Positions 1 through 41,175 of a stretch of 43,161 nucleotides of DNA are shown here, one piece after another. Every line of letters starts with the position of its first letter. The stretch's first letter is position 1. A program made the translations under genes and the position numbers. Source of the DNA: a virus; UHGV virus genome UHGV-0191544; one strand, given 5' to 3'. Under the pieces are notes generated by a model. It saw only the letters and a list, made by a program, of their open reading frames with translations, was not told the origin of the DNA and did no database searches.

Positions 1-352
1 GCGTATCCTTTCCTGCGCGCTGTTCGTTAACCCCTGGATTATTTCATTAGTGAAGTTGTTACATGCCATTGAGGTTCCACTTTGTGTCATATCCGTCTTC
101 AAATACAGCGTGGCAAACTTTGATAAGCGCCTGTCGTCGACGATCTTTCTGATTGGTTTTCAAATTGCCAGTTCGCTTGGGATTGTGCTGCTTTCAACGC
201 CGACTGGGATACTCTTTGACCACGCAGGCTACCAAACAGTTTTCTTCGCAATTTCGGGTATTGTCTGCCTGATGTTGCTATTTGGCATTTTCTTCTTGAG
301 TAAAAAACGCGAGCAAATAGTTATGGAAACGCCTGTACCTTCAGCAATATAG
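1..352 (+). CDS. C-terminal fragment of a host polytopic membrane (transporter-like) protein; reading frame is open to the window edge
   Basis: Frame of ORF 50..352 has no stop back to position 2; hydrophobic helices; lies outside the att repeat. Confidence 0.45.
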   Translation, partial: RILSCALFVNPWIISLVKLLHAIEVPLCVISVFKYSVANFDKRLSSTIFLIGFQIASSLGIVLLSTPTGILFDHAGYQTVFFAISGIVCLMLLFGIFFLSKKREQIVMETPVPSAI

Positions 353-793: not shown

Positions 794-808
794 TGGTGTC
801 CCCTGCAG
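794..808. repeat. att core, left copy (TGGTGTCCCCTGCAG), identical to the tRNA 3' end
   Basis: Exact 15-bp match to 41025..41039; flanks diverge immediately. Confidence 0.65.
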
Positions 809-867
809 ACATCTACTTGACGCGGCAGGGGATTGATTAGAATGGTGTTTTTTAGATGTGAGAAATA

Positions 868-1364: not shown

Positions 1365-2165
1365 TTAAGCGGCGTCGGTGAATTCAAATAAAAAACCGGC
1401 TTGCGCCGGCTCTCTCATCTTTCTGTCTACCCATGCTGATATCGATGGCGGGTGCACCTTTTCAATAGCAGCGCGAAGTACAGCTGTACGTGCCAGTTTG
1501 TCAGTAATCTCAGGAAATCGCTTCTCTGTCTTCGGTACGTTAACAGCAACATTAGTAGAATCCGCACTGGCGAACGGATACATACCAAGAACTCTCACGT
1601 CGAGCATTCGAAGACCATGAATTTTCACTTTCAAATTACGATTGATATAAAGCTCAGTGAAAACTTCATCCATTCTCTGTTCCCACCATTTAGAGCGTAT
1701 GTGCCTGTGTGGGCCGCAGCATCCAATCGCCACCCATTCAAATTTGCCAGAAAGGCGTAAAAGACGTTCAATTGATTCGTCGGTATGCCAGACCGGAACC
1801 GCTTTTGATTTTAGCCAATCAGGAACCAACTCAATCTGCTCGTCGTTTTCTGCCTCTGTCCCTTCGATAACGTCAGGTATAAGAAACCATTCAATTCTGC
1901 TGAACCACTTCCCAACAAAGTCGTAGAATTTTGCTCGCCTCTTACTCCAGTCTACCGGAGTGCCTTTCTTTAATGCTTTCATCCAGTCGCTAAAAGCACC
2001 GTTATCAAGGCGTATATCACAAGGGAACATGGCAATCTTTTTCATCTGCTCTGGTCTGGCAAATGAAACAAAAGCCCCACCATCACGGTAAAGGGCTTTA
2101 ATCAGCATATCTGTAGGGGCATGCTCATCACCCCATATTGGGCTGCCGTGAAAGTGGATGGTCAT
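1365..2165 (-). CDS. Hypothetical 266-aa protein, last gene of early-left operon; possible TGT/DpdA-like transglycosylase fold (speculative)
   Basis: Long ORF; motifs in TGT-like order (RLDNGAF, IPDVIEG, VAIGCCG, IHGLRMLD); no zinc CxCxxC..H motif seen. Confidence 0.3.
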   Translation of the reverse strand: MTIHFHGSPIWGDEHAPTDMLIKALYRDGGAFVSFARPEQMKKIAMFPCDIRLDNGAFSDWMKALKKGTPVDWSKRRAKFYDFVGKWFSRIEWFLIPDVIEGTEAENDEQIELVPDWLKSKAVPVWHTDESIERLLRLSGKFEWVAIGCCGPHRHIRSKWWEQRMDEVFTELYINRNLKVKIHGLRMLDVRVLGMYPFASADSTNVAVNVPKTEKRFPEITDKLARTAVLRAAIEKVHPPSISAWVDRKMREPAQAGFLFEFTDAA

Positions 2166-3675: not shown

Positions 3676-4170
3676 TCACTCTCCTTTGATGCGAATGCCA
3701 GTGGTACTCATTCTCCTGATTTCCCAGAGCACACGAGGAATACCACCGTTTCCGACCGGATCGCGTTTACTCCGCAGGGCGACGCTTGATTCCGCCCAGC
3801 TTTTTCTTGGAGGAAGCTCTTTCACACGAACAAAACCAGCTGCGCGAAGAGATGCTCCTGATTCATCTGCCTGGGTGTACGTAATACAACGTTGATAACC
3901 CATAGCTTTTGCTGCCCGCCAGACAGCACCATAAAGCGCGCTGTTAGCGTTGCGTTCTCCTGTGGTACATGTGCGATTTACTTCAAGCGTTAATCCATCG
4001 TCCAAATGTCGTGCAACAGGTCGACCAGCTGTCGCCACACCTATCAATTCTCCGGCATTATTTCTCAGACCAATGCTGAATTTATGCCCCACTGGTGGTT
4101 TATTGTGTCGGTGGTGCTGTGCGATAAATTCCTGCGCCGCTTTCAGCGTTATAGGTGAAATGACCATCAC
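3676..4170 (-). CDS. Hypothetical protein, 164 aa
   Basis: ORF start overlaps upstream gene stop (ATGA); no family recognised. Confidence 0.55.
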   Translation of the reverse strand: MMVISPITLKAAQEFIAQHHRHNKPPVGHKFSIGLRNNAGELIGVATAGRPVARHLDDGLTLEVNRTCTTGERNANSALYGAVWRAAKAMGYQRCITYTQADESGASLRAAGFVRVKELPPRKSWAESSVALRSKRDPVGNGGIPRVLWEIRRMSTTGIRIKGE

Positions 4171-8325: not shown

Positions 8326-8964
8326 CTATGCGGCCTCGGAAGGAAGTCCAATCATCTTATTCAAATCCTCTACCCGTAAAGCAGGAAGTGCTGTACTTGC
8401 TTTATCTGCTTCTTTTGGTAGCAATTCTTTGCTTTCAGGCCAAACTTCAATGAGTCGCTTAACTGTTGTGACTGAGTTTAAAGCAGCCCATACATTTGAT
8501 TCGATATCCTTTTTCTTGGCTTCAAGTTTTTGTTGTAATGCGCAGATTTCATCAAACCTTTTTGTTATTTCGTGCTCTGCGTCAAACATGCATTTATCTT
8601 TTATCGGAGTAGGGAGAAATATATCTTCGCCGTTGCCGTCTTTCCCATATGAATGCCATCCAACCCTTCTGCCAGATACAGTCAGATAAATTGAAGTAGA
8701 ACGAAAATCGTATGAGTAAAATGAACATCCCATCTTTCCAAGTTCTTCACTTATAGCTACCAACTTGGATGATAACTGTTCCACTTCCTCAGTTTTCTTT
8801 TTACCGCCAAACGCAATAACTCTGGCGTCAAGTGCAAGCTGGTTCTTTAACTTTGTTACTTCTTCAAGCTCAGTGAAAACCCCAGACTTAATTAAAGCGT
8901 TACGAGCGATTTCCTCTTTCATTCTCGTAGTTAAGCGGATTGATGACATATTAATTCCTCTCAA
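8326..8964 (-). CDS. Hypothetical protein, 212 aa (possibly starting at internal Met, about 207 aa)
   Basis: ORF between N and first terminator; no family recognised. Confidence 0.5.
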   Translation of the reverse strand: MRGINMSSIRLTTRMKEEIARNALIKSGVFTELEEVTKLKNQLALDARVIAFGGKKKTEEVEQLSSKLVAISEELGKMGCSFYSYDFRSTSIYLTVSGRRVGWHSYGKDGNGEDIFLPTPIKDKCMFDAEHEITKRFDEICALQQKLEAKKKDIESNVWAALNSVTTVKRLIEVWPESKELLPKEADKASTALPALRVEDLNKMIGLPSEAA

Positions 8965-10225: not shown

Positions 10226-10594
10226 TTAGTCAGCGAAGGTTAAGACGAGAATTACCTTAATGATGTCTGCTACAACAGACACGGCCATAGATAAACCAAA
10301 GACGATCCAAGCCACAGTGATGTCTTCACTACCATCGTATATAGTTCCGTAATCACTGGTGTAAGGCGTAAATGTCGCGCCTTGATACAATAGGTATAAG
10401 CTTGATCCATAGAGGATAAATGCAGATATCCCTTGTATTGCTATGATCACCAGAATCATGAAACGAGCTGATCTATGCGCCCAAGCCTGGCTTATTTTTT
10501 CTGATAGAGATTTCGCAATAAAAGCATGCGCTAAGCCGTAAATTGTCGAGATTGCCAACATCCCAAAAAAGCTTGCTATAGCGGTTCCAACCAT
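10226..10594 (-). CDS. Polytopic membrane protein, about 122 aa, co-transcribed with cI (rex/sieB position)
   Basis: Track ORF 10226..10615 overlaps cI stop; likely ATG at 10594 with AAGGGG SD; 3-4 hydrophobic helices. Confidence 0.6.
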   Translation of the reverse strand: MVGTAIASFFGMLAISTIYGLAHAFIAKSLSEKISQAWAHRSARFMILVIIAIQGISAFILYGSSLYLLYQGATFTPYTSDYGTIYDGSEDITVAWIVFGLSMAVSVVADIIKVILVLTFAD

Positions 10595-10611
10595 AATCGC
10601 CCCTTGCGTGA

Positions 10612-11328
10612 TCAAACCAGCCTTAGTTTTGTCTCAATTGCAACGCCTATAATCTTGCAGTTTCCATTGATTGGCACGAGAGGCCATGCAGGATTAAGTC
10701 CCTTGAGGTATTTATTTCCGCCGTCGATTATCAGCTTCTTGAATGTTGCTTCGTTAGAGTCAGAAAGTTTTGCTATGACCAAGCTGCCGTTGATCGCCTC
10801 CCTTCCGGTATCGAAAAGAACGAATGTTCCCTCTGGAATGCTTAACCCAACCGGTGCCGTCATTGAATCACCTTCCACTTTAAGCCAGAACGCATTACCT
10901 TGAATATGCGCGTCAGACTCAAGCCAAACATCTATGTCTTTAATGGTGTATGGTTCGCATGCTTCACACCACGAGCCAGCCTGGATACTGCTTAACACCG
11001 GATACCTCTTTCCTGCTCTGTATTCCCCTGCATACCTTACGTTGGCATCGCTCTTAAGGCTTTCTGCCTGTTCTGCAACCTTGGCAGCAATTGACTGGCT
11101 AAAATCAGCAATTGAGACTTGCAACAGCCGTGCAAAACCAGATGCAACCTCAACGTTTAGCGCGTTTCTGCCATTAAGATAATGCCCTACCGCTCCTTGG
11201 GTGATACCCAGTTCATCAGCGATTGAGTATTGGGTTATTCCCAATTCTTTCTTTTTTGACTCATACAAAGCCTTAAGCCGCTTAGCGTCTTCGAGCTGTT
11301 CTGTCGTCAGTGATTTTTTATTTTCCAT
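10612..11328 (-). CDS. cI: CI-type prophage repressor (HTH plus LexA-like S24 peptidase domain)
   Basis: Closely resembles lambda CI (LTQEQLEDARRLKAIY..., FWLEVEGNSMTAP...) as recalled. Confidence 0.9.
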   Translation of the reverse strand: MENKKSLTTEQLEDAKRLKALYESKKKELGITQYSIADELGITQGAVGHYLNGRNALNVEVASGFARLLQVSIADFSQSIAAKVAEQAESLKSDANVRYAGEYRAGKRYPVLSSIQAGSWCEACEPYTIKDIDVWLESDAHIQGNAFWLKVEGDSMTAPVGLSIPEGTFVLFDTGREAINGSLVIAKLSDSNEATFKKLIIDGGNKYLKGLNPAWPLVPINGNCKIIGVAIETKLRLV

Positions 11329-12050: not shown

Positions 12051-12212
12051 ATGACAAAACGTCGTAAGAAATACCAGGAAAAAGAAGAGATTCGACACCC
12101 TGATTCACCTGAGGGATTAGTGGTAGCCGCAGCAAATAACAGGGCGTTCGCAGAGCGCCTTGTTGGTGTTTACAGACTAGCCAAAGCAGGAGTGAAACAT
12201 GGGCGTCGTTAA
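12051..12212 (+). CDS. Small basic protein, 53 aa, between cII and the replication gene
   Basis: ATG 5 nt after AGGAG; overlaps O-like start by 14 nt. Confidence 0.3.
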   Translation: MTKRRKKYQEKEEIRHPDSPEGLVVAAANNRAFAERLVGVYRLAKAGVKHGRR

Positions 12213-13089
12213 GTTAGCTGATTACAGGCATAACCCTGTACAACATCAGGAGGCATCCAGTATGGGGTATGTCTCTATACACCGCCAGTTTATGGACAGC
12301 AGACTCTATAAGGACTCTCAGGCAGTACATCTTTGGCTTCACTTAATCCTCAAGGCTAATCACGAATCTACTGTCGTCAATACGGATATCGGTCCGATAA
12401 CTGTTGATCGCGGTCAGATGATAACTGGACGCCCGTCGCTGGTCAGAGAAACATTCATTCCAGACAACAAAGTTCGGAGCTTATTACGGACTTTTGAGTC
12501 GAAAGGGATGCTTAATATTTGCTCGATGGGGAAGAAATTTAGCCTGTTTACAATCGTTAAATATGACGATTTTCAGGCAAAAAATTGTCCAACGGTTGTC
12601 CAACAGTTGTCCAACGCAAACACCAGTAATGGCGCGGCTCTCAGCGGAGATTGTCCAACGGTTGTCCAACGGTTGTCCATAAACAATAATATAAATAATA
12701 TCTCTAATACTGACGTATTAGAGAGTGCCACAGCAGACAAAAAGTCTGACAAGAAAAAACCTTCCGTCAGCTGTCAGGATGTTGTCGATGCTTACCACGA
12801 AATCCTTCCTGAAGCGCCAAGAATCCGCGCACTGAATGACAAGCGTAAAAACCAGATCCGAACGTTCTGGCGCAAAGCCGGAGTGATAACCCGACAGCTT
12901 GAAGGGCATGGTTTCACGATGCAGGACTGGAGAAATTATTTGAGCTACGTAGGCGAAAATTGCCGATGGATGTTCGAAGAGCGTCCAAACCATCAACGCG
13001 GAACTGTCTGGCACAAAAAGGGATTTGATTTCCTGCTTAACGATAATACCTACCTGAAAGTTCGTGAGGGTGAACACGATGACCGATAA
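12199..13089 (+). CDS. Replication initiator (lambda O / P22 gp18-like), contains origin iterons
   Basis: Position upstream of helicase; iterons embedded in coding sequence; start may be internal Met at 12262. Confidence 0.65.
   Translation: MGVVKLADYRHNPVQHQEASSMGYVSIHRQFMDSRLYKDSQAVHLWLHLILKANHESTVVNTDIGPITVDRGQMITGRPSLVRETFIPDNKVRSLLRTFESKGMLNICSMGKKFSLFTIVKYDDFQAKNCPTVVQQLSNANTSNGAALSGDCPTVVQRLSINNNINNISNTDVLESATADKKSDKKKPSVSCQDVVDAYHEILPEAPRIRALNDKRKNQIRTFWRKAGVITRQLEGHGFTMQDWRNYLSYVGENCRWMFEERPNHQRGTVWHKKGFDFLLNDNTYLKVREGEHDDR
12585..12680. repeat. Origin iterons: six 11-bp TTGTCCAACGG-type repeats in two clusters, followed by AT-rich tract
   Basis: Clusters at about 12585-12617 and 12651-12680; AT-rich 12681-12720. 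Confidence 0.7.
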
Positions 13090-16579: not shown

Positions 16580-16755
16580 TGCTTAGCCCATCCCAATCCA
16601 TTCAATACCAGAAAGAAAGCGTCGAGCGGGCTTTAACGTGCGCTAACTGCGGTCAGAAGCTGCATGTGCTGGAAGTTCACGTGTGCTCCGATTGCTGCGC
16701 AGAACTGATGAGCGATCCGAATAGCTCAATGTACGAGGAAGAAGACGATGAATGA
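16579..16755 (+). CDS. ninF: NinF-like zinc-finger protein, 58 aa
   Basis: Hand-translated MLSPSQSIQYQKESVERALTCANCGQKLHVLEVHVC..., matching lambda NinF as recalled. Confidence 0.55.
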   Translation: MLSPSQSIQYQKESVERALTCANCGQKLHVLEVHVCSDCCAELMSDPNSSMYEEEDDE

Positions 16756-17470
16756 GTTAATAAATGGCAATGCCATCAAAATGACAAGCATTGAAATCGC
16801 TGAGTTGGTGAGTAAGCGTCATGACAATGTGAAACGTACCATCGAAACGCTGGCTAAAAATGGTGTTATCCGGCTTCCTCAGATTGAGGTTTCCGAAAGA
16901 ATCAATAACTTAGGGTTCAATGTTCAGTACGAGCATTACGTCTTCGAAGGCGAACAAGGTAAGCGAGACAGTATTGTCGTTGTTGCCCAGTTGTCGCCGG
17001 AATTCACCGCTCGTCTTGTTGACCGTTGGCGAGAGCTTGAAGAAACTGCGGTTAATATCCCCAAAACGCTACCAGAAGCGTTGCGCCTTGCTGCTGATCT
17101 TGCTGAGCAGAAAATGCAACTGGAAAACCAGCTCGCAATTGCCGCACCTAAAGTTGAGTTTGCCGATCGCGTTGGCGAGGCCAGCGGAATTTTGATTGGA
17201 AACTTTGCAAAGGTTGTCGGTATTGGCCCAAACAAACTGTTTGCATGGATGCGCGATCACAAAATCCTTATTGCTTCAGGTTCCCGGCGCAATGTGCCAA
17301 TGCAGGAATATATGGATCGCGGCTATTTCACAGTGAAAGAAACAGCGGTCAACACAAATCACGGAATACAGATATCGTTCACCACAAAAATCACCGGGCG
17401 TGGTCAACAGTGGCTGACCAGAAAGCTGCTCGATAACGGAATGCTGAAAGTAACAGGGGAGGCTGCTTAA
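16748..17470 (+). CDS. Phage antirepressor-like protein (N-terminal Rha/ORF6N-like, C-terminal KilA-C-like)
   Basis: Domain-like sequence pattern, size 240 aa; family call from memory only. Confidence 0.5.
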   Translation: MNELINGNAIKMTSIEIAELVSKRHDNVKRTIETLAKNGVIRLPQIEVSERINNLGFNVQYEHYVFEGEQGKRDSIVVVAQLSPEFTARLVDRWRELEETAVNIPKTLPEALRLAADLAEQKMQLENQLAIAAPKVEFADRVGEASGILIGNFAKVVGIGPNKLFAWMRDHKILIASGSRRNVPMQEYMDRGYFTVKETAVNTNHGIQISFTTKITGRGQQWLTRKLLDNGMLKVTGEAA

Positions 17471-20534: not shown

Positions 20535-20709
20535 TAGCGATAATTTTACTCATCATCCTTCACATCTGGCTCTGTAGACAGGGTGATGATCACTTCTGGA
20601 GTGAATCCAGATTAAACATCTCATTGCTGATGCTTGATATTGAGCATCTGGCGCGCGGTAAGGGGCTGCGTTGAGATAAGAGCCAGTCATTACAAACACC
20701 AGGATTTAG

Positions 20710-20732
20710 CCTCGCATTCGCGGGGCTTTTTT
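20710..20732 (+). terminator. Intrinsic terminator candidate between the lysis cassette and rha
   Basis: CCTCGC-ATTC-GCGGGG stem-loop followed by CTTTTTT; approx coordinates. Confidence 0.45.
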
Positions 20733-20876
20733 ATATCTGAATTTCACAGCGCATCTCACGCGCATATTAACGAGAGCCTTTCAGTAAGCGAGCCTGAGAA
20801 ATGCCGTTATAGGTGGCGACCTCTCTCGGGCGGCTTTTCTGTGAGACAGGCTCACTTTCTAAAAGGTAAAGACGCT

Positions 20877-21395
20877 ATGAATCATCAATTGGCTAATCTC
20901 GATTTCCGGGACATGGTGGTTGTTTCTGGTGATCGCGTGATCACAACCTCCCGCAAGGTAGCAGCTTACTTCGACAAGCAGCATCACCACATCATTCAGA
21001 AAATCGAAAAGCTAGACTGTTCGGATGAATTTCTAACCAGCAACTTTTCGCGGGTTACCTATGAACACAAGGGTAATCAGTATGTTGAATATGAAATTTC
21101 CAAAGACGGCGAGATGTACATCATCATGTCGTTTACCGGCAAAAAAGCTGCCGCCATCAAAGAGGCGTTTATCAAAGCATTTAATTGGATGCGTGACAGG
21201 CTGATGGAGATGGCTCACTCATACCAAAGAGAGCACAACGAGTTAATGCTGGAGTTCATGAAGGAAAAGGATGTTGCCAGTATGTCAGGACGCTTGCTGA
21301 ACCGCTGGGGCAGGATCAAAAAACCGCAACTCATAGCAAGAATCGAAAGGCTTGAGCAGCAGGCGCAAATATCGATCCCCGGACTGCCAAAGTGA
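20877..21395 (+). CDS. rha: Rha-family phage regulatory protein
   Basis: Internal ATG at 20877 (AAAAGG SD) of track ORF 20634..21395; Rha-like N-terminus. Confidence 0.65.
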   Translation: MNHQLANLDFRDMVVVSGDRVITTSRKVAAYFDKQHHHIIQKIEKLDCSDEFLTSNFSRVTYEHKGNQYVEYEISKDGEMYIIMSFTGKKAAAIKEAFIKAFNWMRDRLMEMAHSYQREHNELMLEFMKEKDVASMSGRLLNRWGRIKKPQLIARIERLEQQAQISIPGLPK

Positions 21396-36623: not shown

Positions 36624-37109
36624 TTATCTGATGTTACTGCTACTGTTGCATGTGACTGTATTTCCAAACCCTGAATTGCAGTTTGTGTAAGTGTCAACTC
36701 GTGTTGGATAGGGTTGAGTTATAACAGGCTGTCTCGCTTTTTGCTCGATCGCTTGCATTGTGTTTACAGCCTGATAATTCAATAAAGCCTGCTGGAATGC
36801 TTGGCTTTGTGCTATTTGTTGGGCTTGTTCTTGGCTTTGTAATTGAACATAAAGATTCTGAAGCTCAAGTCTTGCCTGTGCGTCACTTATCTTGCCTTCA
36901 TCGACACCTTGCCCGAGCATCTTTGCAGCAAGGACATACAGCTTAGGTGTTGGTGCTGATGCCATGCGTGAGTCGTTCTTCACACTGGCATCAAGGCAAT
37001 TAGCCATATCGCTAAGCTTTTGATAGCGTTGTTCGCAACTTGCTTGATAGTCACTTACTTTTGCGCATCCAACCAGCAGAAGCGGGATAATTAACAGTGA
37101 TTTTTTCAT
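36624..37109 (-). CDS. Lipoprotein with Gln-rich coiled-coil region, in the immI/sieA position
   Basis: Internal Met gives MKKSLLIIPLLLVGC signal peptide with lipobox; SD GGAGAG; opposite strand to late operon. Confidence 0.6.
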   Translation of the reverse strand: MKKSLLIIPLLLVGCAKVSDYQASCEQRYQKLSDMANCLDASVKNDSRMASAPTPKLYVLAAKMLGQGVDEGKISDAQARLELQNLYVQLQSQEQAQQIAQSQAFQQALLNYQAVNTMQAIEQKARQPVITQPYPTRVDTYTNCNSGFGNTVTCNSSSNIR

Positions 37110-37179: not shown

Positions 37180-37446
37180 CTATGTTTCCTTTTTATTATT
37201 GCTATACATGGTCTTAAGCGTTTCAAATACCATTTTCTTAACCATATCAGATTGTTGTTCTGCCATACGCTCTGCATCATCAATGTAAACGGATGCAGAG
37301 CTTTGTTTAGCCAACGATTCTTCAATCGCTGCAATTATCTCTGAGTTCAGCGATCTGTTATTCATCTTCGCACGCTGCTTAATTTTCGCGTGGAGTTCAT
37401 GCGGAAGTCTCAAGTGAAACTGCGCCTCATCGTATTTGCTGTACAT
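37180..37446 (-). CDS. mnt: Mnt-like ribbon-helix-helix repressor
   Basis: Matches P22 Mnt as recalled (NGRSMNSEL..., NDAERLADEQSELVKKMVFDTLK). Confidence 0.8.
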   Translation of the reverse strand: MYSKYDEAQFHLRLPHELHAKIKQRAKMNNRSLNSEIIAAIEESLAKQSSASVYIDDAERMAEQQSDMVKKMVFETLKTMYSNNKKET

Positions 37447-37567
37447 CCTTGATGCCTCACCAGTTGGGTGGAATTGCATCGTAACCTACTGGATAAATAC
37501 TCAATAGTACCATTTCGGTATGCAATCACATCATGGTTGCATCATATCATTCGTCTGGAGCAATGAA

Positions 37568-39640
37568 ATGTCAGATATCACCGCAAATGTTGTGGTAAGC
37601 ATGCCTTCGCAACTCTTCACTATGGCTCGTTCTTTTAAAGCGGTTGCCAATGGAAAAATTTATATCGGTAAAATTGACACTGACCCGGTAAATCCTGAAA
37701 ACCAGATTCAGGTTTATGTGGAGAACGAAGACGGTTCTCACGTTCCTGTTTCGCAACCAATAATCATTAACGCTGCTGGTTACCCTGTATATAACGGACA
37801 GATTGCCAAATTCGTAACTGTGAAAGCCCATTCTATGGCTGTTTATGATGCGTATGGTGCACGGCAGTTTTATTTTGGAAATATCATCCAATATGATGCA
37901 AAGCAAATCCTTGCTATTTTGTCTGGAGATATCGGTGCAACTTTTGTCGGGTGGAGAAAAAGAAAGTTAAACGACATACTTGATTCAATCTCTATAAGAT
38001 CTGATGACTTTCTTACTCTTCATGATTGGGCGGCTTATCCTGCTAAGCATAAAATTCTTGCTGGAGGAAATTACAATTTATCTTCAAGGCTGGAGATTGA
38101 TTGTGAGACATTATCTGTTGAAGGCGTAGCAAATATAAATGTAGGTGATTCATTTGTTGCTATGTATTTTGGTACAAATCAGCGAGATTTACTAACCACT
38201 ATTAGCTCTAATATTTCAAAAGGAATAACCAGTCTCACTGTTGATAATGTTCAGGAAGGAGATACTTTATGCTTTTATAATCCTTCAGATTTTTCATGGT
38301 CTGGACACAGGAATTATTATCGTGGCGGAGAGTTTGTTAAGGTGGTTAGGTATTCGAATGGGATTGCGTACTTCAATGGAGGGACAAAAGCCGCATACCC
38401 ATCCGGAACTCAAGTTTATAAGCTAAAAACAAAAAAAGTTTCTGTAAATGGGACTTTTGTATTTAATTTTCCTTCATACCACAAAAACGCCATGGCCATG
38501 CAATTCGAGCAGGTAGCTGATGGTAACTTTGACAATCTCGTCGTCACATCTCACACTGCGCCTTATGCCGTTCAGTTTAAACGTTGTTTCAATCTTGCTG
38601 GCAAGGGAATGCGTATCACACAGGAGTCTCCTTCTGTAAGTTTTGGCTTAGAATATGCCTGCTATATCTGCAATAGCCAGAATATTGATTTTGAAGGTAT
38701 ATTTTGTGCGGAGCGCCACTCAGTCACTGTGACTGGTAATGATGAAATTTGCGGTATTGTTAACCGATTTATTAGTGTTAACGCCAGCGGCGGCGCAATC
38801 ATGACTACTGGACAGGGTGGGGTGGCGGCAGCAGACTGGCACGGAAACACCGAAAAGTGTAGGTATGGTGGATATATTCAGGGGCTTGCTTGTGGAGGCT
38901 CTAAAAATAGCGCATATGGCGCTCATATCGACCACATACCGAACACTCCGGCATGGCCGAACATACTTGCTACGGAACTTAAATCAATAGAGTTTGATTT
39001 AAGCAATATCCATGTTACCGGGATAGGCGATCCGTCTTCAGTAAGCAGAGGCTGTATTGATTTTGGGGGTAACTCTACTGCATTCGGAACTAATACCGTT
39101 GATCCTGGAACGCTGAACCTTTCAGGGGCCGTTATTGATTCTCCTGCAAGCGTGTTGATTGAGATAAGAAACAGGGGGTCAGTAGCTGCGCACACCATAA
39201 ATCTTAATGGAGTTACCGCCAATGCAGAGAGCGGTAAGCACACAGTCAGGATTGCGCCGGTTGGGGAAGTTGGTATTTCTCCTTCAGATGTTTACATGGC
39301 AGGGTTTAAGATGCCTGCCGGTAGTATCTCACAGATAAACAACATGTCATCAGTAAACGTACATGGAGTTGATTTAACAGGAACCGCAACGGCTACTATA
39401 CCTGCAGGTAGCTTTTCTGTTGAGGTAACTATACCTTTCCCATCGAGTATATTAGGGGTGCCAAAGCATATCGGCTTCGGGTTAACAGGATTAATACCCC
39501 CAACGCAGAGACGGGTTGTTCTCTCAAAAAGAAATGCAACAGCAAATCAATTCCGTGTAATTGTCGCGTTGGCAACTACTGATGCAGAGCTAACGTCTGA
39601 TCTGAGTGTGGACTTCACATATCATGTATCATGGCGCTAA
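37568..39640 (+). CDS. Tailspike (P22 gp9-like head-binding domain, divergent receptor-binding domain)
   Basis: N-terminal about 115 aa matches P22 gp9 ([34 protein letters not shown]...); rest unrelated. Confidence 0.9.
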
Positions 39641-39709
39641 CATTATTTGAAAAAATATCGAAAAGCACCTCAACGCCTGTGAAGCCGATGAGAGGTTTTT
39701 CACGACCCA

Positions 39710-40864
39710 TCATATCTTTTCATCAAGCCAATCCGCCCACCACTGCATCATTTCTCTGCGCTTATCGAGATACTGAGCATGGTTGTAAATTCCACGCACA
39801 GAACCGCCGTTGGCATGTGCTAGTTGCACTTCAATAGCATCGGCGGGCCATTCGTGCTCGTTCATAATCGTGCTGAATTCATGCCTGAATCCGTGACCGC
39901 TTTCCAGACCCTCATAGCCAATTTGTTTGATCACAAGCAATACCGCGTTCTCGCAGATTGGCTTCTTCTTATCGTTGCGTCCGGCAAAAACAAACTCTGA
40001 TACTGGTTTAGTGATTGAGCTTAGCGTAGTGAGAAGTTCAACCACCTGGTCTGACATCGGGACCACATGAATTTTGCGTCCCTTCATCACACTGGCGTCG
40101 ATGGTGATAATCCTGTTTTCAAAATCGACGTTCTTCCATTGCATGGAGCGAAGCTCTTTCGTTCTGAGGGCTGTGTAGCGTAAAACTTTGGTCGCAATGA
40201 GCGATACGATGCTTCCTGAAAATGTTGCCAGTGCTTTGTTAAATGCCGGGATCTGGTCTGCAGGAAGAAACGGGAAGTTCTTCTTGCGGTATCCCTTCAT
40301 GGCGTCAGCAAGGTCAGGTGCCGGGTTATATTTAGCCCTGCCGGTGACAATAGCGTAACGGAAAACCTCGCCGCATCTTCTGCGTGCTTTGTTGGCTCGC
40401 TCCATTGCACCGCGATCTTCGAATCTGCGGATTACTTCCAGCAGTTGCATCGGCTCAATATCCTGAATCTCAAGACCGCCGATGATGGGTAAAATGTCGT
40501 CATCAAACATTTTGGCAAGTTCAGTCGCATATCCTACTGACCAGACTTGCTTCTTGTGCTCGTACCATTCCTTGTAAATGGCGCTAAAGGAATTGTTGTT
40601 AGACGAAGCCTTTTTCGCTTTTACCGGATCGATGCCAACCGAGATGTCTTTCCTCGCGGTCCATGCTTTATCTCTTGCCTCCTGCAAAGTCATTAGCGGA
40701 TATTTTCCTACGGTCAGGATTTTCTCCTTACCGTCAATCTTGTAGCGAAGCTGCCATACCTTTTTCCCGGATACAGGGACATAAAGGTACAGGCCATTAC
40801 CATCGAGAAGGCGGTATGGTTTTTCTTTCGGCTTTGCTGCTTCAATCTGCTTAACGGTGAGCAT
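39710..40864 (-). CDS. intS: Tyrosine integrase, P4/IntS type
   Basis: N-terminus LTVKQIEAAKPKEKPYRLLDGNGLYLYV typical of P4-family integrases; adjacent to tRNA; likely ATG at 40864. Confidence 0.9.
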   Translation of the reverse strand: MLTVKQIEAAKPKEKPYRLLDGNGLYLYVPVSGKKVWQLRYKIDGKEKILTVGKYPLMTLQEARDKAWTARKDISVGIDPVKAKKASSNNNSFSAIYKEWYEHKKQVWSVGYATELAKMFDDDILPIIGGLEIQDIEPMQLLEVIRRFEDRGAMERANKARRRCGEVFRYAIVTGRAKYNPAPDLADAMKGYRKKNFPFLPADQIPAFNKALATFSGSIVSLIATKVLRYTALRTKELRSMQWKNVDFENRIITIDASVMKGRKIHVVPMSDQVVELLTTLSSITKPVSEFVFAGRNDKKKPICENAVLLVIKQIGYEGLESGHGFRHEFSTIMNEHEWPADAIEVQLAHANGGSVRGIYNHAQYLDKRREMMQWWADWLDEKI

Positions 40865-40909
40865 GGGTAAAAATCCGGTGGGTAAAATTATTTTATCCAC
40901 TTTTTACCC
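40865..40909. promoter_or_regulatory. GGGTAAAA motif cluster (two direct, one inverted) at the integrase start; candidate arm sites
   Basis: Same 8-mer as at 868..887; approx coordinates. Confidence 0.35.
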
Positions 40910-41024: not shown

Positions 41025-41039
41025 ATGGTGTCCCCTGCA
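41025..41039. repeat. att core, right copy, forming the 3' end of the tRNA
   Basis: Exact 15-bp match to 794..808. Confidence 0.65.
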
Positions 41040-41099
41040 GGAATCGAACCTGCAATTAGCCCTTAGGAGGGGCTCGTTATATCCATTTAACTAAGAGGA
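41025..41099 (-). tRNA. argW: tRNA-Arg (anticodon CCU)
   Basis: Reverse complement reads GTCCTCTTAGTTAAATGGATATAACGAGCCCCTCCTAAGGGCTAATTGCAGGTTCGATTCCTGCAGGGGACACCA. Confidence 0.9.
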
Positions 41100-41175
41100 C
41101 AATGCGGCATGAGTATACCCGCTAATGGACTGCGGGGTAAGTACGCTGCCGCTCGATTGCTTAAACCCTCGCCAT

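What the first reader, a model, noticed from the sequence alone, without database searches (positions are those of the whole stretch)
37568..39640. Tailspike with conserved head-binding domain and divergent receptor-binding domain; no gtr/oac genes
Only the first roughly 115 residues match P22 gp9; the remaining 575 residues do not resemble the P22 endorhamnosidase as I recall it. This implies a different surface polysaccharide target. The tailspike is followed directly by the integrase, without the O-antigen-modifying genes (gtrABC or oac) that P22-like phages usually carry there, so any lysogenic-conversion function must sit elsewhere.
Basis: partly seen in the sequence, partly recalled or inferred. 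Interest (0 to 1): 0.45.

Follow-up and report, generated by a model that had tools for sequence, protein, structure and literature searches.

The report
Mosaic P22-like tailspike, probably O30-specific
This is the tailspike gene of a P22/Sf6-like prophage at the argW tRNA gene of E. coli; it joins the usual particle-binding head to a sugar-cutting module shared almost unchanged with lytic coliphages, probably targets the O30 O-antigen, and is an ordinary example of phages swapping receptor-binding modules.

Summary
ORF 37568-39640 encodes a 690-aa tailspike. Only residues 1-114 match P22 gp9 and Sf6 gp14 (Pfam Head_binding). The gene ends 69 nt from a convergent IntS integrase next to tRNA-Arg(CCT). 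No gtr, oac or other glycan-modifying gene was found in the 40-kb prophage.

The rest of the protein is not an orphan. It belongs to the LKA1 gp49 / AP22 gp54 tailspike family: a beta-helix with an inserted beta-barrel and a C-terminal jellyroll. The AF2 model has pLDDT 88 and TM 0.72-0.78 to 4ru4 and 4y9v. Four of the five putative LKA1 active-site residues are conserved.

The protein is a three-part mosaic:
- The head is about 99% identical to other E. coli P22-like prophages.
- The core, aa ~210-600, is 90-99% identical (also at DNA level) to uncharacterised tailspikes of lytic myoviruses and a T7-like phage.
- The C-terminal domain is only about 40-50% identical to those phages.

Only 1 of 5426 complete E. 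coli genomes carries this tailspike, and it is one of the 17 with the O30 wzx/wzy cluster. A second, non-clonal host is named O9,30:H25.

Best reading: an O30 O-antigen depolymerase, possibly a lyase. It is a new member of a known kind and of modest interest.

The parts
37568..39640 (+). Tailspike gene, 690 aa plus stop codon.
   Evidence: ORF and translation. Pfam PF09008 + PF20745. PF22442 is precomputed for the identical protein.
37568..37909 (+). Head-binding (particle-binding) domain, aa 1-114.
   Evidence: PF09008 E 4.6e-63. Sf6 gp14 and P22 gp9 chains match 1-114. 93-99% identical over aa 1-90 to four other E. coli P22-like prophage tailspikes, dropping to about 60% in aa 91-120.
37910..38197 (+). 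Linker and N-terminal cap of the receptor-binding part, aa 115-210. This is a divergent segment of the mosaic.
   Evidence: Only 40-70% identical to the lytic-phage homologues. Helices followed by the first strands in the AF2 model.
38198..39367 (+). Beta-helix with inserted beta-barrel (PF20745, aa 209-285). This is the presumed catalytic core, aa 211-600, and includes R248, R383, D423 and H425.
   Evidence: 90-99% aa and 84-99% nt identity per 90-nt bin to the tailspikes of vB_EcoM_3A1_SA_NWU, ALITA and a T7-like contig. LKA1 gp49 4ru4 phmmer E 1.2e-20. Residue mapping to LKA1. Invariant columns in the family alignment.
39368..39637 (+). C-terminal beta-sandwich domain, aa 601-690. This is the second divergent segment.
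   Evidence: 37-53% identity to the same lytic-phage proteins. All-beta in the model. Corresponds to the jellyroll/discoidin-like domain of LKA1 gp49 (PMC5701251; full-length Foldseek alignment).
39641..39709 (.). Empty 69-nt slot between the tailspike stop and the integrase stop, where relatives carry oac, neuO, a wzy-like gene or an acyltransferase.
   Evidence: Sequence. Comparison with Sf6, CUS-3, Sf101, HK620 and E. coli prophages. The same empty slot is present in USMARC-50748 and in the O9,30:H25 isolate.
39710..40864 (-). IntS-type tyrosine integrase. 384 aa from the ATG used by PGAP in relatives; the ORF extends to a GTG at 40900.
   Evidence: PF00589, PF22022 and PF13356. Annotated intS in the homologous prophage.
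41026..41100 (-). tRNA-Arg(CCT) argW. Its 3' end (41026-41040) is the attR core.
   Evidence: ARAGORN. Direct repeat with 794-813.
794..813 (.). attL core repeat (TGGTGTCCCCTGCAG), the left end of the ~40.25-kb prophage.
   Evidence: Direct repeat D3. A host LacY-type symporter fragment lies to its left.
37180..37479 (-). Mnt/Arc-family repressor gene (immI region) upstream of the tailspike.
   Evidence: PF03869 and PF11423.
36624..37109 (-). 161-aa lipoprotein gene in immI (lipobox LLVGC) of unknown function. It is not tailspike-specific.
   Evidence: phrog_6067, unknown function, E 1.6e-110. A gene of the same size and position is present in prophages with different tailspikes.

Best explanation
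The gene encodes the tailspike of a P22/Sf6-like (Lederbergvirus-type) temperate podovirus integrated at argW of E. coli. Residues 1-114 dock the trimer onto the tail hub. Residues ~120-690 form a beta-helix depolymerase of the LKA1 gp49 / AP22 gp54 family, which binds and cleaves a surface polysaccharide so that the virion can reach the outer membrane. The protein was assembled by recombination: an E. coli P22-like head-binding domain, a central catalytic core exchanged recently with lytic coliphages, and a separately diverged C-terminal beta-sandwich. The most likely substrate is the E. coli O30 O-antigen. The most likely chemistry is beta-elimination (lyase) at a uronic-acid residue, as in both characterised relatives. 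The prophage carries no O-antigen-modifying conversion gene. Shown: domain architecture, fold family, mosaic boundaries, empty slot, and co-occurrence with the O30 gene cluster. Inferred: O30 as the substrate, the lyase mechanism, and trimer formation.
For: Architecture and fold:
- PF09008 plus PF20745 and PF22442.
- AF2 pLDDT 87.9.
- Foldseek E 1e-23 to 1e-26 and TM 0.72-0.78 over the full length to 4y9v, 4ru4 and 4ru5.

Active site: LKA1 R329, R459, D497 and H499 align to R248, R383, D423 and H425, which are invariant in the 9-sequence family alignment. LKA1 gp49 and AP22 gp54 are experimentally shown lyases (PMC5701251; PMC11126041).

Mosaic: per-segment identities at protein and DNA level. 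GC is 41-43% across the gene against 51% in the structural module.

O30 link:
- The tailspike is in 1 of 5426 complete genomes.
- That genome has O30 wzx/wzy, which only 17 of 5426 genomes have. The chance expectation for that one genome is 0.3%.
- Another carrier is named E. coli O9,30:H25.
- The two hosts differ by 4.6% in 6.6 kb of flanking chromosome, so they are not one clone.

No conversion gene.
Against: - The O30 link rests on two typed hosts. The serotype of the window's own host is unknown.
- The near-identical core occurs in phages isolated on O177 and K-12 hosts. Those phages carry several other receptor-binding proteins, so this is not a contradiction, but it gives no support either.
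- I could not retrieve the O30 repeat-unit structure, so I do not know whether it contains the uronic acid a lyase needs. The O30 cluster has no sugar-synthesis genes.
- LKA1 His494 is Ala420 here.
- The LKA1 active site is itself only putative.
Confidence: 0.55

Rival explanations
1. The target is the same (O30 O-antigen), but the enzyme is a hydrolytic endoglycosidase like all characterised P22-like tailspikes (P22, Sf6, HK620, CUS-3).
For: - The O30 gene cluster holds only three glycosyltransferases, wzx and wzy, with no dedicated uronic-acid pathway gene.
- One of the five putative LKA1 catalytic residues is not conserved.
- Beta-helix depolymerase families are known to switch chemistry (PMC5701251 notes that sites and mechanisms vary between beta-helices).
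Against: - Both biochemically characterised members of this fold family are lyases (PMC5701251, PMC11126041).
- The Asp/His/Arg constellation is invariant in the family alignment.
- UDP-GlcA (ugd) and UDP-ManNAcA (ECA pathway, established knowledge) are available in E. coli without cluster-encoded genes.
Confidence: 0.25
2. The tailspike targets a glycan other than the O30 antigen, for example a capsule, colanic acid, or enterobacterial common antigen (which contains 4-linked ManNAcA). The O30 co-occurrence would then be coincidental.
For: - The near-identical catalytic core is carried by phages propagated on O177 and on rough K-12.
- Both characterised relatives cut at ManNAcA-type residues (PMC5701251, PMC11126041).
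- The best PHROG for the whole protein is labelled colanic-acid degradation.
Against: - A universal target would not predict such a rare tailspike (1 of 5426 genomes), nor that both typed, non-clonal hosts carry a 0.3%-frequency O-antigen cluster.
- The lytic phages with this module already encode a separate colanic-acid-degrading protein.
- The PHROG match is driven largely by the head-binding domain (residues 1-409 of the query).
Confidence: 0.15
3. The gene is a decaying remnant with no current function: a defective prophage, or an inactive spike that binds only.
For: - One carrier (the O9,30:H25 isolate) holds only a ~9-kb remnant that still has the tailspike and int.
- The conversion slot is empty.
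Against: - In the window the prophage is full length (~40 kb), with intact P22-type portal, coat, gp4, gp10, needle, ejection proteins, lysis and replication genes and both att cores.
- The ORF is intact and identical in independent metagenome contigs.
- The putative catalytic residues are conserved.
Confidence: 0.05

Closest known systems
Sf6 gp14, P22 gp9, HK620 gp9 and CUS-3 endosialidase tailspikes (Lederbergvirus)
   Same: The N-terminal head-binding domain (85% identical to Sf6, about 70% to P22). The gene position after the ejection proteins and immI. The IntS/argW integration module of Sf6, HK620 and CUS-3.
   Different: The receptor-binding part is from another family: TM 0.2-0.35 to their beta-helices. 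Those four are hydrolases. Each of them has a glycan-modifying gene between tailspike and int, and this prophage has none.
Pseudomonas phage LKA1 gp49 (PDB 4RU4), an O5 O-antigen lyase, and its homologue phi297 gp61 (4RU5)
   Same: Beta-helix interrupted by a beta-barrel insertion domain, plus a C-terminal jellyroll. Conserved Arg, Arg, Asp and His of the putative active site. The substrate is an O-antigen. (PMC5701251.)
   Different: Only about 19% identity in structural alignment. It has a different N-terminal anchor (T7-like phage), host and substrate. His494 is not conserved here.
Acinetobacter phage AP22 gp54 (PDB 4Y9V), a K91(40) capsule lyase
   Same: Top Foldseek hit (E 1.9e-26, TM 0.72). 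Same domain order. The AD-x-HGN and RH motifs are shared. It is a lyase acting at ManNAcA (PMC11126041).
   Different: 17% identity. It belongs to a myovirus, and its target is a capsule rather than an O-antigen.
Uncharacterised tailspikes of lytic coliphages: vB_EcoM_3A1_SA_NWU, 10C3 and 118 (Phapecoctavirus), ALITA (Justusliebigvirus), and a T7-like metagenomic phage (P0002)
   Same: The core, aa ~210-600, is 90-99% identical at protein level and mostly 90-99% at DNA level, so they almost certainly have the same substrate.
   Different: They have other N-terminal anchors (PF18668 Tail_spike_N or none). The cap (40-70%) and the C-terminal domain (37-53%) are divergent. They sit in virulent phages with several receptor-binding proteins. 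No specificity has been published for them (PMC10698182).
Proteus phage vB_BPM-V3 tailspike
   Same: The same two-part design, a P22-type head-binding domain fused to a Gp49-type receptor-binding part, aligned over residues 1-632.
   Different: Only 38% identical. It has a different host genus and is uncharacterised.

Membership tests
P22-like (Lederbergvirus) tailspike | N-terminal head-binding domain (PF09008) homologous to P22 gp9 residues 1-~110. | tested here: met
   PF09008 residues 1-113, E 4.6e-63. PDB chains of P22 and Sf6 match 1-114.
P22-like (Lederbergvirus) tailspike | Encoded at the end of the late region of a P22-type virion module, after gp7/gp20/gp16 and immI. | tested here: met
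   P22 portal, scaffold, coat, gp4, gp10, Sf6-type needle, gp7, gp20 and gp16 lie upstream, with mnt directly upstream.
P22-like (Lederbergvirus) tailspike | Homotrimer that cleaves the host surface polysaccharide. | not testable with these tools
   Only a monomer model was made. Activity needs biochemistry.
P22 gp9 endorhamnosidase receptor-binding domain | Sequence or close structural similarity to P22 gp9 residues 125-666. | tested here: not met
   No sequence match beyond residue 114. Foldseek TM about 0.2 and E > 1e-3 to 2xc1, 1qrb and 2vfm.
LKA1 gp49 / AP22 gp54-type tailspike (PF22442 Gp49_Pectate_lyase_like + PF20745 TSP_Ig-like) | Beta-helix interrupted by a beta-barrel insertion domain, followed by a C-terminal jellyroll. 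| tested here: met
   PF20745 residues 209-285. PF22442 precomputed for the identical protein. Full-length Foldseek alignments with TM 0.72-0.78.
LKA1 gp49 / AP22 gp54-type tailspike (PF22442 Gp49_Pectate_lyase_like + PF20745 TSP_Ig-like) | Conserved putative active-site residues (LKA1 Arg329, Arg459, His494, Asp497, His499). | tested here: inconclusive
   Four of five are conserved (R248, R383, D423, H425). His494 is Ala420, as it is Gly/Ala in phi297 and AP22.
LKA1 gp49 / AP22 gp54-type tailspike (PF22442 Gp49_Pectate_lyase_like + PF20745 TSP_Ig-like) | Lyase (beta-elimination) activity on a uronic-acid-containing polysaccharide. | not testable with these tools
   Needs product analysis. The O30 repeat structure (Perepelov 2014, Carbohydr Res 389:196) is not held in the library.
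Serotype-converting P22-like prophage (gtrABC, oac, neuO or wzy-like gene beside the tailspike) | A glycan-modifying gene between the tailspike and int/att, or elsewhere in the prophage. | tested here: not met
   The gap is 69 nt. No GT or acyltransferase Pfam hit in 44 ORFs. No ORF has more than 3 predicted TM segments.
O30-specific tailspike (proposed) | Carriers of the tailspike have the O30 O-antigen gene cluster. | tested here: inconclusive
   Two of two typed, non-clonal carriers are O30, against a 17/5426 background. The other roughly 44 carrier sequences are untyped.

The most novel reading that the evidence does not exclude
This would be the first P22-like tailspike that works as an O-antigen lyase, where all characterised ones are hydrolases. 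It would be specific for E. coli O30 and sit in a temperate phage that has dispensed with serotype conversion. Its lysogens might instead escape re-adsorption through on/off slippage of an A7/A8 tract in the O30 wzy polymerase gene, which is seen frameshifted in the only complete lysogen genome and in 2 further O30 genomes, at least one of which (PSS-07) is a separate lineage by SNPs.
Probability: 0.12. Interest if true: 0.5.

Novelty: new member of a known kind. Interest (0 to 1): 0.3.

Why it matters
If confirmed, this would give a first candidate O30-specific depolymerase. No O30 tailspike appears in the searched literature. Such an enzyme could be used for typing, glycan preparation or host-range prediction.

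It is also a clean, datable example of a receptor-binding core moving between a temperate podovirus, large lytic myoviruses and a T7-like phage, with breakpoints inside the receptor-binding part itself.

It would also assign a probable target to uncharacterised tailspikes of phages proposed for biocontrol. None of this changes current understanding of tailspike modularity.

Tried and rejected
- I first took PDB 4y9v to be the phiAB6 tailspike and read that paper. The Foldseek description shows 4y9v is AP22 gp54, and phiAB6 never appeared as a hit, so its retaining-hydrolase mechanism was dropped as evidence.
- I searched for the O30 repeat-unit structure in three literature searches and one direct look-up. 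Only the citation was found, and the supplements are not held.
- A literature search for an O30-specific tailspike found none. The paper on the O177 phages does not characterise the homologous protein.
- A second homologue search with the family alignment returned no new sequences, so the AF2 alignment stayed at 9 rows.
- NCBIfam gave no family for the tailspike.
- The promoter/terminator scan found nothing above shuffle expectation in the empty slot.
- I considered the immI lipoprotein (36624-37109) and the 3-TM protein downstream of the repressor (10226-10615) as hidden conversion factors. Neither hits a glycan-modification family. A lipoprotein gene of the same size and position also sits in prophages with other tailspikes.
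- I tried to type more lysogens but could not, because the tools give only 10 kb around a gene and the O-antigen locus lies about 375 kb from argW.
- WP accession numbers of one tailspike variant (WP_059332929) and of the O30 Wzy (WP_059332957) are adjacent, which hints at a third O30 carrier. I treat this as a hint only, because it could not be verified.

Full report
**Observation**

The finding's coordinates hold an intact ORF (37568-39640, + strand, 690 aa) that begins [10 protein letters not shown] and has a GGAG 8 nt upstream of the ATG. A search against all PDB chain sequences matches Sf6 gp14 (7sg7, E 3.9e-59) and P22 gp9 (8tvr, 2xc1, 1lkt; E 1e-42 to 1e-45) only over residues 1-114. 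Pfam places Head_binding (PF09008) on residues 1-113. So the statement that only about the first 115 residues match P22 gp9 is correct. The head is in fact closer to Sf6 (85%) and to other E. coli P22-like prophages (93-99% over aa 1-90).

**Context**

The window is an E. coli chromosome segment:
- The right flank (yfdC, mlaA) is 99.9% identical to many E. coli genomes.
- A tRNA-Arg(CCT) gene sits at 41026-41100.
- Its 3' end is repeated at 794-813, which bounds a ~40.25-kb prophage.
- The prophage has P22-type terminase, portal, scaffold, coat, gp4, gp10, Sf6-type needle knob, gp7, gp20 and gp16, plus a lambdoid early region.
- The tailspike is preceded by an Mnt/Arc repressor gene and a lipoprotein gene (immI).
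- After 69 nt it is followed by a convergent IntS-type integrase.

**The empty slot**

In reference phages with this layout, the slot between tailspike and integrase holds a glycan-modifying gene:
- oac in Sf6
- neuO in CUS-3
- an O-acetyltransferase in Sf101
- a wzy-like polymerase gene, hkcF, in HK620

Of four E. coli prophages sampled from the head-binding-domain hits, three have an acyltransferase directly after the tailspike and one has none annotated. Here the slot is empty, as it is in the two other carriers of this tailspike that I could inspect.

I scanned 44 prophage ORFs against Pfam and found no glycosyltransferase or acyltransferase. A hydropathy screen of all six frames found no prophage ORF with more than three predicted membrane segments. 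This argues against an Oac-, GtrC- or Wzy-like protein anywhere.

**What the rest of the protein is**

Residues ~116-690 are not an orphan:
- Pfam finds TSP_Ig-like (PF20745, residues 209-285). The identical protein in the public collection also carries Gp49_Pectate_lyase_like (PF22442).
- phmmer against the PDB finds LKA1 gp49 (4ru4, E 1.2e-20), phi297 gp61 (4ru5) and 4y9v.
- An AlphaFold2 model of residues 116-690, built on a 9-row alignment, has mean pLDDT 87.9 and pTM 0.85.
- Foldseek against the PDB returns AP22 gp54 (4y9v, E 1.9e-26, TM 0.72), LKA1 gp49 (TM 0.77) and phi297 gp61 (TM 0.72) over the full length. P22, Sf6 and HK620 receptor-binding domains score TM 0.2-0.35.
- An exhaustive HMMER search of 1.84 billion cluster representatives finds 586 related clusters at E <= 1e-3, but only three at 50% identity or more. 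The family is broad and this branch is rare.

**Mechanistic lead**

LKA1 gp49 is an O5 O-antigen lyase. Its putative active site is Asp497 with His494 and His499, flanked by Arg329 from the insertion domain and Arg459 (PMC5701251). AP22 gp54 is a capsule lyase that acts by beta-elimination at a ManNAcA residue (PMC11126041).

I mapped the phmmer alignment onto LKA1 numbering; the mapping reproduces all the named LKA1 residues, which validates the offset. It gives R329, R459, D497 and H499 = R248, R383, D423 and H425 here, and H494 = A420. R248, R383, D423 and H425 are invariant in the family alignment, together with H384 and E429. This supports a shared catalytic site and hence a lyase, but the LKA1 site is itself only inferred.

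**Mosaic structure**

Segment-wise comparison shows three pieces:
- Residues 1-~100 are about 99% identical to the tailspikes of other E. coli P22-like prophages. Those tailspikes then diverge completely.
- Residues ~210-600 (beta-helix and insertion domain) are 90-99% identical, and 84-99% (mostly 90% or more) at the nucleotide level, to uncharacterised tailspikes of three groups: Phapecoctavirus phages isolated on E. coli O177, the Justusliebigvirus ALITA, and a T7-like phage contig.
- Residues 120-210 are 40-70% identical to those phages, and the C-terminal beta-sandwich (601-690) is 37-53% identical.

The whole gene has 41-45% GC, against 51% in the virion module. The sharp drops in nucleotide identity indicate recombination inside the receptor-binding part, not only at the classical head/receptor junction. 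Near-identity of the catalytic core implies that these phages share a substrate.

**Which substrate**

- Only one of 5426 complete E. coli genomes carries this tailspike (USMARC-50748, 98.4% nt). It has the same tailspike-intS-argW layout.
- Its O-antigen locus is annotated as the O30 family wzy and wzx.
- That cluster is present in only 17 of 5426 genomes, so the chance expectation is 0.3%.
- The representative of the 90% cluster comes from an isolate named E. coli O9,30:H25. There the tailspike and int survive in a ~9-kb prophage remnant.
- The chromosomal flanks of these two hosts differ by 4.6% over 6.6 kb, and both differ from the window's host (0.8% and 3.5%). The carriers are therefore not one clone.

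This is the basis for proposing the O30 O-antigen as the receptor. It rests on two typed hosts.

I could not retrieve the O30 repeat-unit structure. The locus has three glycosyltransferases, wzx and wzy, and no sugar-pathway genes. A uronic acid would therefore have to come from housekeeping ugd or the ECA pathway. This keeps the lyase/hydrolase question open.

**Rivals**

- A hydrolase acting on O30 (0.25).
- A different glycan such as ECA, colanic acid or a capsule (0.15). This is disfavoured by the rarity of the tailspike, by the O30 co-occurrence, and by the separate colanic-acid-degrading protein in the lytic phages.
- A non-functional remnant (0.05). This is disfavoured by the complete prophage and the identical copies in independent assemblies.

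**Comparison and novelty**

The design (P22-type head plus a swapped beta-helix) is the textbook pattern of tailspike modularity. The same fusion of a P22-type head with a Gp49-type module exists in a Proteus phage at 38% identity.

What is specific here:
- the probable O30 assignment;
- the possibility of a lyase in a P22-like phage;
- the intra-module breakpoints;
- the empty conversion slot.

I rate this a new member of a known kind, with interest 0.3.

Noticed in passing
window 1365-2165 (-), 8326-8964 (-), 3676-4170 (-): Next to attL lies a 266-aa protein that matches phrog_887 'queuine tRNA-ribosyltransferase' (DpdA-like, E 1.4e-102) but has no Pfam hit. Further in are an Nmad5 protein (PF18757, E 3.7e-71) and an XF1762-family / weakly Mom-like protein. 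Together they suggest a phage DNA-modification (possibly 7-deazaguanine) module in this P22-like prophage.
   Followed up: partly
L006 38791-40016 (USMARC-50748 wzy); L017 and L018: The O30 wzy of the only complete lysogen genome is frameshifted by A7 versus A8 in a poly-A tract. The same one-base-shorter stretch occurs in 3 of 17 O30 genomes, and for two of them (USMARC-50748 and PSS-07) other SNPs show separate lineages. This could be phase variation of O-antigen polymerisation or a homopolymer sequencing error.
   Followed up: partly
window 36624-37109 (-): A 161-aa lipoprotein (lipobox LLVGC, Gln-rich middle) lies between gp16 and mnt, at the position of P22 sieA. It matches phrog_6067 of unknown function. 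A gene of the same size and position lies in prophages with different tailspikes.
   Followed up: partly
window 10226-10615 (-): A 129-aa protein with three predicted membrane segments lies directly downstream of the CI/C2-type repressor gene (10612-11328). It has no Pfam family and matches phrog_6534 of unknown function. It is a candidate lysogen-expressed exclusion protein.
   Followed up: partly
L015 3291-13297 (GCA_050502315.1, E. coli O9,30:H25): This is a ~9-kb degraded prophage at argW. It keeps early genes, the repressor, gp3, mnt, the intact tailspike and int, but has lost the whole virion module.
   Followed up: no
window 12573-12690: Two clusters of 11-nt iterons (TTGTCCAACGG) lie inside the replication-initiator (O-like) gene 12199-13089. 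This is presumably the phage origin.
   Followed up: no
window 50-352 (+): The left host flank is the 3' end of a LacY-type sugar symporter. In a related genome it is part of a sucrose-utilisation-like cluster (GH32, PfkB, symporter) abutting argW.
   Followed up: no
window 16748-17470 (+) and 20634-21395 (+): There are two Rha/KilAC-type antirepressor-like genes outside immI: one in the nin region, and one between the lysis genes and the small terminase. There is no ant gene in immI itself.
   Followed up: no
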